Below, one piece after another: positions 1 through 1,552 of a stretch of 64,000 nucleotides of DNA (position 1 is the first letter of the stretch; each line of letters opens with the position of its first letter). Position numbers and translations under genes: made by a program. The DNA is from an archaeon (GTDB taxonomy: Archaea; Methanobacteriota_B; Thermococci; Methanofastidiosales; NM3), in NCBI GenBank assembly GCA_004212155.1, contig RXIG01000004.1:1-64000 (forward strand). Direction: 5' to 3'. The notes below the pieces were generated by a model that saw nothing but the letters and a program-made list of their open reading frames with translations, was not told where the DNA came from and did no database searches.

Positions 1-357
1 ATATGTCATATACACAGTATTGTAATCGGTCACGTCGACTGGATTTTCCGTTTGTGCATTAACGTACCCACCGTTATTGTAAAATATTTTATCTGCCCGC
101 AGGTAGATGTATGTTGAAGCTTCCGTATATATGTAGGGGCTGTCGCTGTCCCCCTGCACCCATGAGACATGCTCCGTGCCGTCTTCGTACAGATAGAGGG
201 GGGATTCAGGGGGGCTGGCCGCAGACCACACCTCGTCCCACGACGCTCCGTCCCATTGCAGCACGCGCTTGACGTCCGCCCATGATGCCCCGTCCCAGTG
301 CTTGATCGACGGCACGCTCACCCAGCCGCTTCCGTTCCAGTATTTTGCGTCGGCCAT
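1..357 (-). CDS. Putative viral tail/adhesin-like protein with W-[DN]-G-x-x-W repeats (runs off the window edge)
   Basis: Manual translation from ATG 357, preceded by GTGA: MADAKYWNGSGWVSVPSIKHWDGASWADVKRVLQWDGASWDEVWSAASPPESPLYLYEDGTEHVSW...VDVTDYNTVYMTY. It is open to base 1 and therefore absent from the ORF track. Confidence 0.65.
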   Translation of the reverse strand, partial: MADAKYWNGSGWVSVPSIKHWDGASWADVKRVLQWDGASWDEVWSAASPPESPLYLYEDGTEHVSWVQGDSDSPYIYTEASTYIYLRADKIFYNNGGYVNAQTENPVDVTDYNTVYMTY

Positions 358-361
358 GCTA

Positions 362-789
362 TCACGTCGAGGTATCGAACCAGAAGTCTCCCGTGTTCTC
401 GGCTGTAGGCTGGCTGTCCTGGACCGTGGCGCCCGCGACTCCCGTTCGGTGATCGGCCCGTCGCCGAGCACCTCGACGATCAGCCACGCCTTGCTCTCGA
501 CGTACACGCCGGGCTCGACGCCCGCCCAGTCGAAGTGCTCCATCGTGGTGCCGTCGTCGGGACACCCCTTTCTCCTGAGGCGGAGCACCTTGTAGGTCTC
601 GCCGTAGGGCGTCGTTACCGTCCTGAGTCCCTTAGGTATCAATTCCGGGGCCACCGCGTACACGGCGCTCCCTCCGTTCAGGTAGAGGTCGTCCATCAGG
701 TCCTTCCTGCTGTAGGGCAGCCCCTCCTCCGCCGCGCGTATGGCGCGGTCATATTGCCGTTGATTGCACGAGCTCATATTGCATGCCAT
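362..789 (-). pseudogene. Frame-broken or chimeric element gene
   Basis: ATG 789 abuts the upstream TAA and reads MACNMSSCNQRQYDRAIRAAEEG...IVEVLGDGPITE. Near 445 the protein-like sequence continues in the -1 frame (GVAGATVQDSQPTAENTGDFWFDTST*, stop at 362). Confidence 0.5.
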
Positions 790-1017
790 TTACTTGCCTC
801 CCGTTGCGCTCTTGTCGTACCACCAGCTCACGCCCATGTACCCCGTGAGTGCGGTGAGCATCCCGAACATGAGCCCCGTGAGCCAGTCGGGCACCGAGGT
901 CATGTCCTGGAACACCACCCCGTAGGTGAGGGTGAGAAGGGCGATGCTGAAGGTGATGGCGAGAACGAGCACGACCTGACGCTTGGTCGAGGTCCGTATG
1001 GTCTCCAGGTTGCTCAT
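790..1017 (-). CDS. Small two-TM membrane protein (holin-like topology)
   Basis: 75 aa with two hydrophobic helices. SD AAGGTG overlaps the CCA end of the upstream tRNA. Confidence 0.65.
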   Translation of the reverse strand: MSNLETIRTSTKRQVVLVLAITFSIALLTLTYGVVFQDMTSVPDWLTGLMFGMLTALTGYMGVSWWYDKSATGGK

Positions 1018-1027
1018 GTGGACACCT

Positions 1028-1102
1028 TGGAGCCGGCGGAGAGATTTGAACTCCCAACCTGTCCCTTACTGGGGGACCGCACTCCCGTTGTGCTACGCCG
1101 GC
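1028..1102 (-). tRNA. Atypical tRNA-Thr, anticodon AGU, C33, encoded CCA
   Basis: Minus strand: GCCGGCG TA GCAC AACGGGA GTGC G GTCCC CCAGTAA GGGAC AGGTT GGGAG TTCAAAT CTCTC CGCCGGC T CCA. All four stems pair. G1-C72, C2-G71, G35/U36 and U73 fit archaeal Thr identity. TATA-like TATATATAA at about 1136-1144. Confidence 0.85.
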
Positions 1103-1277
1103 TTGAGTTTCTCAAACATATGTAGTAATAAGGGGTTATATATAGGATTGGAAAGAGTGCAAATCCATCCGCCGCCTGGCTTAACGTCTAGAAAGGAATA
1201 AATATCTTGAAGTTCTATAATGGTGTGACGGACGAATCGACACATACTGGCATGGTAGGGTAAATGTTCCAAATGAG

Positions 1278-1325
1278 CGCCTGTTAAGCGGATGGTCGCA
1301 GGTTCAAGTCCTGCTGACGGCGCCA
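1278..1325 (+). repeat. att site: 3' half of tRNA-Asn(GUU)
   Basis: CGC CTGTTAA GCGGA TGGTC GCAGG TTCAAGT CCTGC TGACGGC G CCA followed by a T-tract. There is no D-arm or 5' acceptor strand upstream, and only 3 bp of the anticodon stem remain. Confidence 0.85.
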
Positions 1326-1552
1326 TTTTTATACTCTATTTTTCGATAACTGATTTTTTTTCTTTTTCTGATTCTTGCACTGTTTTCCAGGCTCAAACGA
1401 TCTCTCACCCTCAACACTACTGTTGGCTGGACACATCCTCACGTTCGTACGGCGCTTCAACTGATGCATCCTTTTTCAGGATCAGACATTACAAGGCCAA
1501 ACAACTCCAAACATTTTTAATGGAATATACAGACTGTTACATGGTGAAAAAC

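What the first reader, a model, noticed from the sequence alone, without database searches (positions are those of the whole stretch)
1028..1102. Element-borne tRNA-Thr with A34 (AGU), C33 and an A15-U48 pair
Seen: an intact cloverleaf with encoded CCA, Thr identity elements and anticodon loop C-C-A-G-U-A-A. It departs from archaeal norms three ways: A at wobble position 34, C instead of the near-invariant U33, and A15-U48 instead of G15-C48. Known: archaea lack TadA/ADAT and essentially lack ANN tRNAs; G15 is the archaeosine site; an unmodified-A34 tRNA-Thr(AGU) functions in Mycoplasma. The compensated 15-48 pair and fully paired stems argue for selection rather than decay. Inference: a viral tRNA that needs few host modifications and may evade anticodon nucleases, or a decoy tRNA mimic.
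Basis: partly seen in the sequence, partly recalled or inferred. Interest (0 to 1): 0.8.

Follow-up and report, generated by a model that had tools for sequence, protein, structure and literature searches.

The report
Odd threonine tRNA on archaeal provirus
A tailed virus integrated in a small methane-making archaeon carries a well-folded threonine tRNA gene with a rule-breaking anticodon loop, but close relatives of the virus have deleted its anticodon or the whole gene, so it looks dispensable.

Summary
ARAGORN and Rfam call a 75-nt tRNA-Thr(AGU) at 1028-1102 (minus strand). It has loop CCAGUAA, A15/U48, U73 and an encoded CCA.

It is virus-borne. Window 1-1277 is the end of a provirus inserted in the host tRNA-Asn gene, and 1278-1329 is the duplicated 52-nt att copy. 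A 22-kb IMG/VR tailed-virus contig with capsid, portal and terminase genes carries the identical tRNA, 75 of 75, in flanks 95% identical. That rules out an assembly error or a private mutation.

The case for a tuned function is weak:
- **Other alleles:** in four public runs, one relative lacks 3 nt of the anticodon loop, and relatives in two other studies lack the whole tRNA cassette.
- **Codon use:** ACU is the rarest Thr codon in both virus (2.7%) and host (6.2%).
- **Deaminase:** no TadA-type enzyme was found.
- **A15-U48:** it is shared with a bacteriophage tRNA-Thr, so it looks inherited.
- **C33:** the host family's own initiator tRNA also has it.

Best reading: a real but dispensable accessory tRNA under relaxed selection. 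A nuclease-resistant ACY decoder remains possible. Interest is moderate.

The parts
1..789 (-). First 263 codons of a provirus ORF (P0001). It runs off the contig start and is the second gene of the operon behind the tRNA.
   Evidence: The N-terminal 139 aa are 91% identical to the ORF at the same place on viral contig G041. No Pfam or PHROG match.
790..1017 (-). 75-aa ORF (P0002) with two hydrophobic stretches. Its start codon lies 10 nt behind the tRNA.
   Evidence: 95% identical to the G041 copy. No Pfam match. The hydrophobic stretches were read by eye from the translation.
1018..1027 (-). 10-nt spacer, AGGUGUCCAC on the RNA strand, with a Shine-Dalgarno-like AGGUG.
   Evidence: Read. It differs from G041 at 2 places, one of them a 1-nt indel that breaks any common reading frame through the tRNA.
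1028..1102 (-). tRNA-Thr(AGU): loop CCAGUAA, A15-U48, U73, encoded CCA.
   Evidence: Identical, 75 of 75, in G041. A 3-nt loop deletion plus G26A in run X1; absent in runs X3 and X5.
1103..1115 (-). 13-nt 5' leader, lost together with the tRNA in the tRNA-less relatives.
   Evidence: tables 5 and 5c: joints 1028 to 1115/1116 with TG or TGG between.
1116..1151 (-). Promoter block with a TATA-like box (CCTATATATAA on the RNA strand, 1147-1137). It is kept in all five alleles.
   Evidence: X3 and X5 contigs resume at 1115/1116 and run to 1145-1151. The promoter role is inferred from the archaeal TATA consensus and its usual distance to the start, both recalled.
1152..1277 (.). att-proximal arm specific to this lineage. 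G041, X1, X3 and X5 all diverge from the window here.
   Evidence: (loose ends at 1145-1151).
1278..1329 (+). attR: a 52-nt copy of the 3' part of host tRNA-Asn(GUU), from the anticodon stem to 4 nt past CCA.
   Evidence: 100% identical to C17:1-52, where the full tRNA-Asn lies at a contig end. ARAGORN calls no tRNA here. In three relatives the C17 flank, a full tRNA-Asn and the DNA downstream of window 1330 are contiguous.

Best explanation
This is a genuine virus-encoded tRNA-Thr gene sitting as a small cassette (13-nt leader plus tRNA) between a TATA-type promoter and the first ORF of an operon. It lies at the attR end of a tailed provirus integrated in the tRNA-Asn gene of a small methanogenic archaeon.

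Inferred mechanism: the tRNA is transcribed as the 5' part of the operon transcript and cut out by RNase P and a 3' endonuclease. It carries the same acceptor and discriminator nucleotides (G1-C72, C2-G71, C3-G70, U73) and G35-U36 as the host tRNA-Thr(GGU), so host ThrRS should charge it. With no A34 deaminase in sight, A34 would stay adenosine and read ACU, and ACC weakly.

That service is of little use to this virus, and the gene is dispensable. Its core looks inherited from a bacteriophage-type tRNA-Thr. Its anticodon loop has drifted off the canonical form, and sister lineages have gone on to delete the anticodon or the whole cassette. I therefore read it as an accessory tRNA under relaxed selection with weak or no decoding role, not as a finely selected device.
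For: Shown:
- tRNA calls and fold.
- Provirus context and att duplicate.
- The identical tRNA on a 22,143-bp viral contig with HK97-type capsid, portal, large terminase, tape measure, tail spike and head-tail adaptor genes. That contig ends in a partial tRNA-Val plus flank, 79.5% identical to the host's own tRNA-Val locus.

Dispensability (4 of the 24 listed runs were laid):
- X1: a 3,067-nt contig, depth 37, covers 428-1151. It lacks 3 nt at 1067-1069, leaving a CCAA loop, and has G26A.
- X3 (two contigs) and X5 (a 4,148-nt contig), from two different studies, join 1028 to 1115/1116 and so lack the tRNA.

Little use for the codon: ACT is 10 of 373 Thr codons (2.7%) in 15 viral ORFs and 6.2% of 18,378 Thr codons in 701 long host ORFs.

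No TadA was found.

Inherited core: D stem, A14-A15, variable loop AGGUU and T stem GGGAG/CUCUC are shared with a Klebsiella phage tRNA-Thr that has the canonical loop CUUGUAA. The same anticodon stem occurs with CUCGUAA in an IMG/VR phage tRNA array. The virus's terminase is 41-44% identical to those of bacterial phages.
Against: - The tRNA is identical, 0 differences in 75 nt, between the window and G041, while the 649 flanking nt carry 33 differences. Poisson P of zero is 0.022.
- The CCAA allele in X1 can only derive from CCAGUAA. The C33/A34 state therefore predates the split of three lineages, and all stems stayed intact through it. This suggests constraint on the tRNA body, or recent exchange by recombination.
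- C33 need not be disabling in this host. Its own initiator tRNA has C33 in all 7 genomes of its family.
- Unmodified A34 is reported to pair with U and modestly with C (PMC11066159, abstract). ACC is 41% of viral Thr codons.
- No expression or charging data exist.
Confidence: 0.5

Rival explanations
1. Defence-escape decoder. The tRNA stands in for host tRNA-Thr(GGU) when a host or competitor enzyme cleaves or modifies that tRNA's anticodon loop. A34 still reads ACU and ACC, while C32-C33-A34 removes the recognition site. Lineages that do not meet this defence lose the gene.
For: The loop differs from the host ACY reader (UUGGUAA) at exactly positions 32-34 and matches it at 35-38. ACC plus ACU make up 44% of viral Thr codons. 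Phage tRNAs with anticodon-loop changes predicted to resist anticodon nucleases are described in PMC10264068 (passages read). A toxin acting on tRNA-Thr(GGU) loops appears in the listing (title and abstract start only). The tRNA body is conserved between two lineages.
Against: No nuclease candidate was found. No PrrC/RloC-type AAA_13 match passes the cut-off, and the single PIN match lies inside a 612-aa frame. These are only two families searched in a 90%-complete genome. The Thr tRNA in question is not a known target in archaea. Two of five alleles lack the gene and one lacks the anticodon.
Confidence: 0.2
2. Non-decoding tRNA-like element. The cloverleaf serves as an RNase P / 3'-processing signal in the 5' untranslated region and sets the 5' end of the operon mRNA right at its ribosome-binding site. 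It could also be a mimic bound by some host factor. Either way the anticodon is free to drift.
For: The position: promoter, 13-nt leader, tRNA, then 10 nt with AGGUG before the start codon. Changes among alleles hit the anticodon loop and G26 but no stem. An allele without an anticodon persists at depth 37.
Against: Two lineages do without the element, with the same promoter and ORFs. tRNA genes co-transcribed with mRNAs are common and need no special role. Nothing here was tested at the RNA level.
Confidence: 0.12
3. Plain codon supplementation: the virus supplies a Watson-Crick reader for ACU codons that the host reads only by G-U wobble.
For: The host has tRNA-Thr(GGU) and no A34 tRNA. A34 pairs best with U (PMC11066159, abstract).
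Against: ACU is the rarest Thr codon, and rarer in the virus (2.7%, 10 of 373) than in the host (6.2%). The two ORFs in the window hold 2 ACT among 28 Thr codons.
Confidence: 0.08
4. Assembly or sequencing artefact, or a private mutation of a normal GGU/UGU/CGU tRNA.
For: The gene lies 1 kb from a contig end in a metagenome-assembled genome, and no run holding the window itself could be laid (best share of words 0.30).
Against: An independent IMG/VR assembly has the same 75 nt. A third assembly (X1) has a loop that derives from CCAGUAA. No host-like tRNA-Thr resembles it in 133 genomes of the phylum.
Confidence: 0.02

Closest known systems
tRNA genes of tailed viruses, including archaeal tailed viruses (PMC8651126: HGTV-1 with 36 tRNA genes, several tRNAs in Hafunaviridae and Druskaviridae; passages read)
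   Same: A tRNA gene carried by a Caudoviricetes-type virus of an archaeon. The provirus is integrated in a host tRNA gene, as reported for most haloarchaeal proviruses.
   Different: Here it is a single tRNA in a provirus of a methanogen, placed between a promoter and the first ORF at the att end. It has A34 and C33, and it is present or absent among relatives about 95% identical.
Mycoplasma capricolum tRNA-Thr(AGU) with unmodified A34 (Andachi et al. 1987 and Inagaki et al. 1995, seen only as references in PMC11066159; their content is recalled)
   Same: Same anticodon and amino acid, and no A34 deaminase acting on it.
   Different: The Mycoplasma tRNA is a chromosomal, essential part of a reduced decoding set. 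As far as I recall it has U33. Here the gene is viral, dispensable and has C33.
Phage tRNAs with anticodon-loop mutations predicted to resist anticodon nucleases (PMC10264068; abstract and passages read)
   Same: A virus-borne tRNA whose anticodon loop differs from that of the host isoacceptor.
   Different: Those changes keep U33 and a usable anticodon, and they map to known VapC/PrrC/colicin cleavage sites. Here no nuclease is known and the change includes U33 and the wobble base.
C33 initiator tRNAs (multicellular eukaryotes, PMC8887486, passages read; and this host's own family)
   Same: C32-C33 before the anticodon and A37-A38 after it. This shows that C33 tRNAs can work in this host lineage, at least in the P site.
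   Different: The viral tRNA lacks the initiator marks: A1-U72 and G29-G31 paired with C39-C41. It has anticodon AGU.
Bacteriophage tRNA-Thr(UGU) of Klebsiella phage KP13-16 (OP617741.1)
   Same: 82.8% identity over 57 nt. Same D stem, A14-A15, variable loop AGGUU with U48, and T stem GGGAG/CUCUC.
   Different: The phage tRNA has loop CUUGUAA, discriminator A73, T loop UUCGAUU and a different acceptor stem. The archaeal-virus tRNA has U73, UUCAAAU and a 3' end 96% identical to a related host's tRNA-Cys.

Membership tests
tRNA (Rfam RF00005) | Cloverleaf scoring above the family's gathering score | tested here: met
   58.4 bits against 29, full model 1-71. ARAGORN call. The MFE fold is the cloverleaf.
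Canonical elongator tRNA | U33 before the anticodon | tested here: not met
   C33. 31 of the 32 other host tRNAs tabulated have U33.
Canonical elongator tRNA | Purine 37, T loop UUCRANY, G18-G19, U8-A14, an R15-Y48 pair | tested here: met
   A37, UUCAAAU, GG in the D loop, U8, A14 and A15-U48, all read.
Archaeal host-type tRNA | G15 (archaeosine site) with C48, no A34 | tested here: not met
   A15, U48 and A34. Host: 32 of 32 G15, 31 of 32 C48, 0 of 32 A34. The host has two TGT-family genes.
tRNA-Thr (substrate of archaeal ThrRS) | Acceptor and discriminator nucleotides and G35-U36 as in the host's own tRNA-Thr | tested here: met
   G1-C72, C2-G71, C3-G70, U73, G35 and U36 in both the viral tRNA and host tRNA-Thr(GGU). 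Which of these the enzyme uses is recalled knowledge.
tRNA-Thr (substrate of archaeal ThrRS) | Aminoacylation with threonine | not testable with these tools
   Needs a charging assay.
I34 tRNAs (TadA/ADAT substrates) | An A34 deaminase in host or virus | tested here: not met
   Only a ComEB-like dCMP deaminase and RibD were found. TadA model 32.8 and 45 bits against a cut-off of 150. None on G041. The host genome is 90% complete and the viral contig 46% complete.
Nuclease-resistant phage tRNAs | Loop differs from the host isoacceptor at a nuclease's recognition site | tested here: inconclusive
   Positions 32-34 differ from host tRNA-Thr(GGU), but no nuclease or site is known.
Nuclease-resistant phage tRNAs | A tRNA-targeting nuclease in the host | tested here: inconclusive
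   AAA_13 (PrrC/RloC type) is below the cut-off. One PIN match lies in a 612-aa frame. Other families were not searched.
tRNA pseudogene | Loss of features needed for decoding, and loss or decay in relatives | tested here: inconclusive
   For: C33, the anticodon-less allele and the gene-less alleles. Against: intact stems and 0 of 75 differences between two lineages.
Integrated tailed provirus (Caudoviricetes) | Hallmark genes plus a duplicated att in a tRNA gene | tested here: met
   Capsid, portal, terminase and tape measure on the relative G041. The 52-nt tRNA-Asn duplicate and the synteny break. Only 1.28 kb of the provirus is in this genome, and no integrase was seen.

The most novel reading that the evidence does not exclude
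An archaeal virus supplies a working threonine tRNA with genuine, unmodified A34 and C33. That would be a decoder of a kind archaea are said not to have. It would replace the host's ACY reader during infection because its altered 32-34 face escapes a still unknown tRNA-targeting defence. The host family's own C33 initiator tRNA suggests that its ribosome and modification enzymes accept C33.
Probability: 0.2. Interest if true: 0.75.

Novelty: new variant of a known kind. Interest (0 to 1): 0.42.

Why it matters
Genes for A34 tRNAs are reported as absent from archaea (PMC11066159, passages read), and U33 is nearly universal. A well-folded A34/C33 tRNA kept identical in two virus lineages is therefore a rare natural test case. 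It bears on what an unmodified wobble adenosine and a missing U-turn uridine do on an archaeal ribosome.

The allele series makes it informative: intact, anticodon deleted, cassette deleted, all within viruses about 95% identical. It shows a viral tRNA gene in the act of being kept or discarded. It also gives ready-made natural controls for testing whether such tRNAs serve decoding, defence escape or RNA processing.

If the gene is only decaying, the finding is a cautionary example: a perfect cloverleaf with identity elements is not evidence of selection.

Tried and rejected
- **More alleles in public collections:** none found. A 24-nt D-arm plus anticodon-stem pattern gave 0 hits in metagenome contigs and genome contigs.
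- **Protein-pattern scans:** an alignment of the neighbouring ORF's N-terminal domain matched 54 and 40 stretches, but none was a relative.
- **Viral contigs:** The tRNA patterns, P0001, P0002 and the terminase all returned only G041, plus unrelated bacterial-phage tRNA arrays.
- **GenBank phages:** no relative of window 1-1277 beyond a 57-nt tRNA match.
- **Host-derived origin:** rejected. No full-length match in 41 relatives or in all 133 genomes of the phylum. Only the T arm and 3' acceptor match tRNA-Cys.
- **Distant proviruses:** terminase homologues in G029 and G031 were fetched, and no comparable tRNA was found in 41.5 kb.
- **A protein-coding reading through the tRNA:** rejected. The 148-aa frame of G041 is broken in the window by a 1-nt indel.
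- **Expression:** the RNA-library run X4 gave contigs identical to window 264-698 only. Its one contig on 1037-1069 has unrelated flanks and is another tRNA. This says nothing on transcription of the tRNA.
- **Run shares:** all were 0.30 or less, so none is taken as evidence of habitat.
- **Earlier notes of this scan:** none on this sequence or these words.
- **Literature:** a full-text search for A34 + 'archaeal virus' + tRNA + anticodon returned 0 papers. This is one search of the open library only. Supplementary tables of PMC8651126 and PMC10264068, which list viral tRNAs, could not be seen.

Full report
**1. What is there**

ARAGORN finds two tRNA genes in the window: tRNA-Thr with anticodon AGT at 1028-1102 on the minus strand, and tRNA-Met at 2108-2182. 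Rfam's tRNA model scores the first at 58.4 bits (gathering score 29) over its full length. The minimum-free-energy fold is the cloverleaf at -31.4 kcal/mol, z = -1.96, with 9 of 200 shuffles folding as well.

Read, the RNA is GCCGGCG-UA-GCAC-AACGGGA-GUGC-G-GUCCC-CCAGUAA-GGGAC-AGGUU-GGGAG-UUCAAAU-CUCUC-CGCCGGC-U-CCA. One small correction: the T stem holds a G50-U64 wobble.

**2. How unusual it is for this host**

The window is the first 64 kb of contig C28 of a 1.49-Mb, 28-contig genome, 90% complete. It has intron-bearing tRNAs and an A1-U72 initiator, so it is archaeal. Earlier notes of this scan call it a small methane-producing archaeon; I did not test that. Its phylum holds 133 species genomes in the tool's set. 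By recall that fits the Thermococci/Methanofastidiosales group, but this is my inference only.

- All 32 others have G15, and 31 have C48 (one was not parsed).
- None has A34.
- 31 have U33. The one other C33 tRNA is the initiator tRNA-Met, with loop CCCAUAA.

The host has tRNA-Thr(GGU) on C17. No UGU or CGU isoacceptor is in the assembly.

**3. It is virus-borne**

Downstream of 1330 lie ordinary chromosomal genes: a flavodoxin-like gene, tRNA-Met, a HAD hydrolase, and purM, purT, purD and purF homologues.

Window 1278-1329 is a 52-nt copy of the 3' part of tRNA-Asn(GUU). It is 100% identical to the end of contig C17, where the complete tRNA-Asn lies. ARAGORN calls no tRNA at 1278-1329.

In three relatives (G002, G005, G006) three pieces are contiguous: the homologue of the C17 flank, a complete tRNA-Asn, and the homologue of the DNA after window 1330. 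So in this genome foreign DNA is inserted in tRNA-Asn, and window 1-1277 is its right end.

That DNA is viral. IMG/VR contig IMGVR_UViG_3300035547_000267 (22,143 bp, handle G041) matches window 428-1151 at 95%. It encodes the following:
- an HK97-type major capsid protein (Pfam Phage_capsid, 5e-64);
- a portal (2e-95);
- a large terminase;
- a tape-measure protein;
- a beta-helix tail spike;
- a head-tail adaptor.

G041's own end is a partial tRNA-Val(UAC) plus flank, 79.5% identical to this host's tRNA-Val locus. So G041 is a provirus of a related host, integrated in a different tRNA gene with the same geometry. Only the 1.28-kb end of the provirus is in the present genome, and no integrase was seen. 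The terminase is 41-44% identical to terminases of bacterial phages.

**4. The C33/A34 state is real and shared**

G041 carries the tRNA without a single difference. Over the 724-nt shared block there are 33 differences, all in the 649 nt outside the tRNA. The Poisson chance of none in 75 nt is 0.022. This rules out an assembly error or a private mutation. It gives weak evidence of constraint, or of recent exchange between the lineages.

**5. Other relatives have lost it**

None of the 24 listed public runs holds more than 0.30 of the sampled words of window 1-1500. I laid Logan contigs of four of them.
- **X1:** a 3,067-nt contig at depth 37 covers 428-1151 with 19 other letters. It lacks three letters at 1067-1069 and has C>T at 1078. 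On the RNA strand this turns the loop CCAGUAA into CCAA and G26 into A. That is a tRNA body without an anticodon.
- **X3 (two contigs) and X5 (a 4,148-nt contig):** these come from two different studies. The sequence runs to 1028 and resumes at 1115 or 1116, with TG or TGG between. The tRNA and its 13-nt leader are gone, while the promoter block and the ORFs remain.

Beyond 1145-1151 the X3 and X5 contigs continue like G041's att arm, read from the loose ends. So the cassette is polymorphic even inside the G041-like sublineage.

The tRNA occurs with three different att arms (window, G041, X1). Loss is therefore a simpler account than gain. The CCAA loop can only derive from CCAGUAA, so C33/A34 predates the split of those three lineages.

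The letters left at the joint read CCA on the tRNA strand. The lost piece thus runs roughly from the predicted transcription start to the discriminator base. I have no mechanism for this, and the alignment is ambiguous by a base or two.

**6. Layout and likely expression (inference)**

On the RNA strand a TATA-like CCTATATATAA (1147-1137) lies about 35-45 nt before the tRNA. The rest follows in order: the 13-nt leader, the tRNA, then 10 nt with a Shine-Dalgarno-like AGGUG, the 75-aa two-hydrophobic-segment ORF, and the 263+-aa ORF, start abutting stop.

The usual archaeal spacing from TATA box to start (recalled) puts the start near 1116. The tRNA would then be the first part of the operon transcript, released by RNase P and a 3' endonuclease. 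In the cassette-less relatives the same promoter would give a short-leader mRNA.

**7. Tests of the proposed functions**

- **Codon supplementation.** ACT is 6.2% of 18,378 Thr codons in 701 host ORFs of at least 300 codons. It is 2.7% (10 of 373) in 15 ORFs of G041; 9 of the 24 greedy ORFs, mostly plus-strand, were left out. The two window ORFs hold 2 ACT among 28 Thr codons. ACG (46%) and ACC (31% host, 41% virus) dominate. A dedicated ACU reader is of little use.
- **Inosine.** The host has two CDA-fold proteins, one ComEB/dCMP-deaminase-like and one RibD. Both are far below the TadA cut-off, at 32.8 and 45 bits against 150. None is on G041. A34 would stay A, which is reported to pair best with U and modestly with C (PMC11066159, abstract and passages).
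- **Archaeosine avoidance.** The host has TGT-family genes and the viral tRNA lacks G15. But A14-A15, the D stem, the AGGUU variable loop with U48 and the T stem are shared with tRNA-Thr(UGU) of Klebsiella phage KP13-16, 82.8% over 57 nt. The same D arm occurs in bacterial-phage tRNA-Ala genes. The same anticodon stem occurs with a canonical CUCGUAA loop in an IMG/VR phage array. The core therefore looks inherited from a phage-type tRNA-Thr.
- **Host-like ends.** U73, the UUCAAAU T loop and a 3' end 96% identical to a related host's tRNA-Cys look like the host's own tRNAs.
- **Nuclease evasion.** Positions 32-34 are exactly where the viral loop differs from the host's ACY reader, UUGGUAA. That is what the idea predicts. 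But no PrrC/RloC-type match passes the cut-off, and only one PIN match, inside a 612-aa frame, was found. Only these two families were searched.
- **C33.** It is an anti-determinant for t6A37 formation in E. coli and yeast but is tolerated by human and nematode KEOPS (PMC8887486, passages). I parsed 30 initiator-tRNA loci, out of 39 matches in 41 genomes. Twelve have C33: all 7 of the host's family and 5 of a second family. Eighteen have U33. So C33 is compatible with this host's machinery, at least for the initiator.

**8. Verdict**

The claim that the odd features show selection is not established.

The evidence best fits a real, probably chargeable but dispensable viral tRNA whose anticodon loop is no longer held to decoder standards and which relatives are losing (confidence about 0.5). 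The rivals are:
- a defence-escape ACY decoder (0.2);
- a non-decoding tRNA-like processing element (0.12);
- plain ACU supply (0.08);
- an artefact (0.02).

No paper in the open library joined A34, archaeal virus, tRNA and anticodon (0 hits). Archaeal tailed viruses with tRNA genes and tRNA-targeted integration are already described (PMC8651126 and PMC11705971, passages). I therefore class this as a new variant of a known kind, of moderate interest.

Noticed in passing
G000 contig C17:61006-61082 (not in the window); loci L065-L094: The host's initiator tRNA-Met has C33 (loop CCCAUAA). Among the 30 relatives' loci parsed, 12 have C33: all 7 genomes of the host's family and 5 of a second family. 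Eighteen have U33. In the paper read (PMC8887486), C33 initiators are described for multicellular eukaryotes. A conserved archaeal case may be worth its own look, for example for t6A37 and initiation.
   Followed up: partly
window 1278-1329 and G000 C17:1-80: A provirus is integrated in tRNA-Asn(GUU), with a 52-nt att duplicate reaching from the anticodon stem to 4 nt past CCA. A virus 95% identical in the neighbouring block (G041) is integrated in tRNA-Val(UAC) instead, and a third (run X1) has yet another att arm. The att/integration module is swapped between near-identical viruses at window 1151/1152.
   Followed up: partly
window 1028-1116 versus runs X3 and X5: The deletion that removes the tRNA leaves TGG at the joint, which reads CCA on the tRNA strand. 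The lost piece runs from about the predicted transcription start to the discriminator base, so DNA-level boundaries coincide with RNA-processing boundaries. No mechanism is known, and it may be chance.
   Followed up: no
window 1028-1055 (tRNA nt 48-75) versus L002:1455-1528 (G004 tRNA-Cys): The T arm, 3' acceptor strand, U73 and CCA of the viral tRNA are 96% identical (27 of 28) to tRNA-Cys of a genome in the host's family. D arm, anticodon arm and variable loop resemble bacteriophage tRNA-Thr genes. The tRNA may be a mosaic, or the likeness may be convergence on host-type ends.
   Followed up: partly
window about 1165-1200 (minus-strand view in alignment A2, columns about 135-170): Inside the otherwise unrelated att-proximal arms of the window and G041 there is a conserved island: GAGATATTTA(T/A)TCCTTTC, then GTTA(A/G)GC. 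It is a candidate integrase or accessory-factor binding site.
   Followed up: no
window 264-698: Contigs of a metatranscriptomic library (run X4) are identical to this part of the provirus ORF with 0 other letters. The same virus, or one nearly identical to it, occurs in that sample. Whether as RNA or as carried-over DNA cannot be told.
   Followed up: no
G000 contig C9:60056-61405: In intron mode ARAGORN predicts a tRNA-Ala(TGC) with a 1,260-nt intron. This is probably a false call but was not examined. The tRNA-Ala(UGC) gene is otherwise missing from the list.
   Followed up: no
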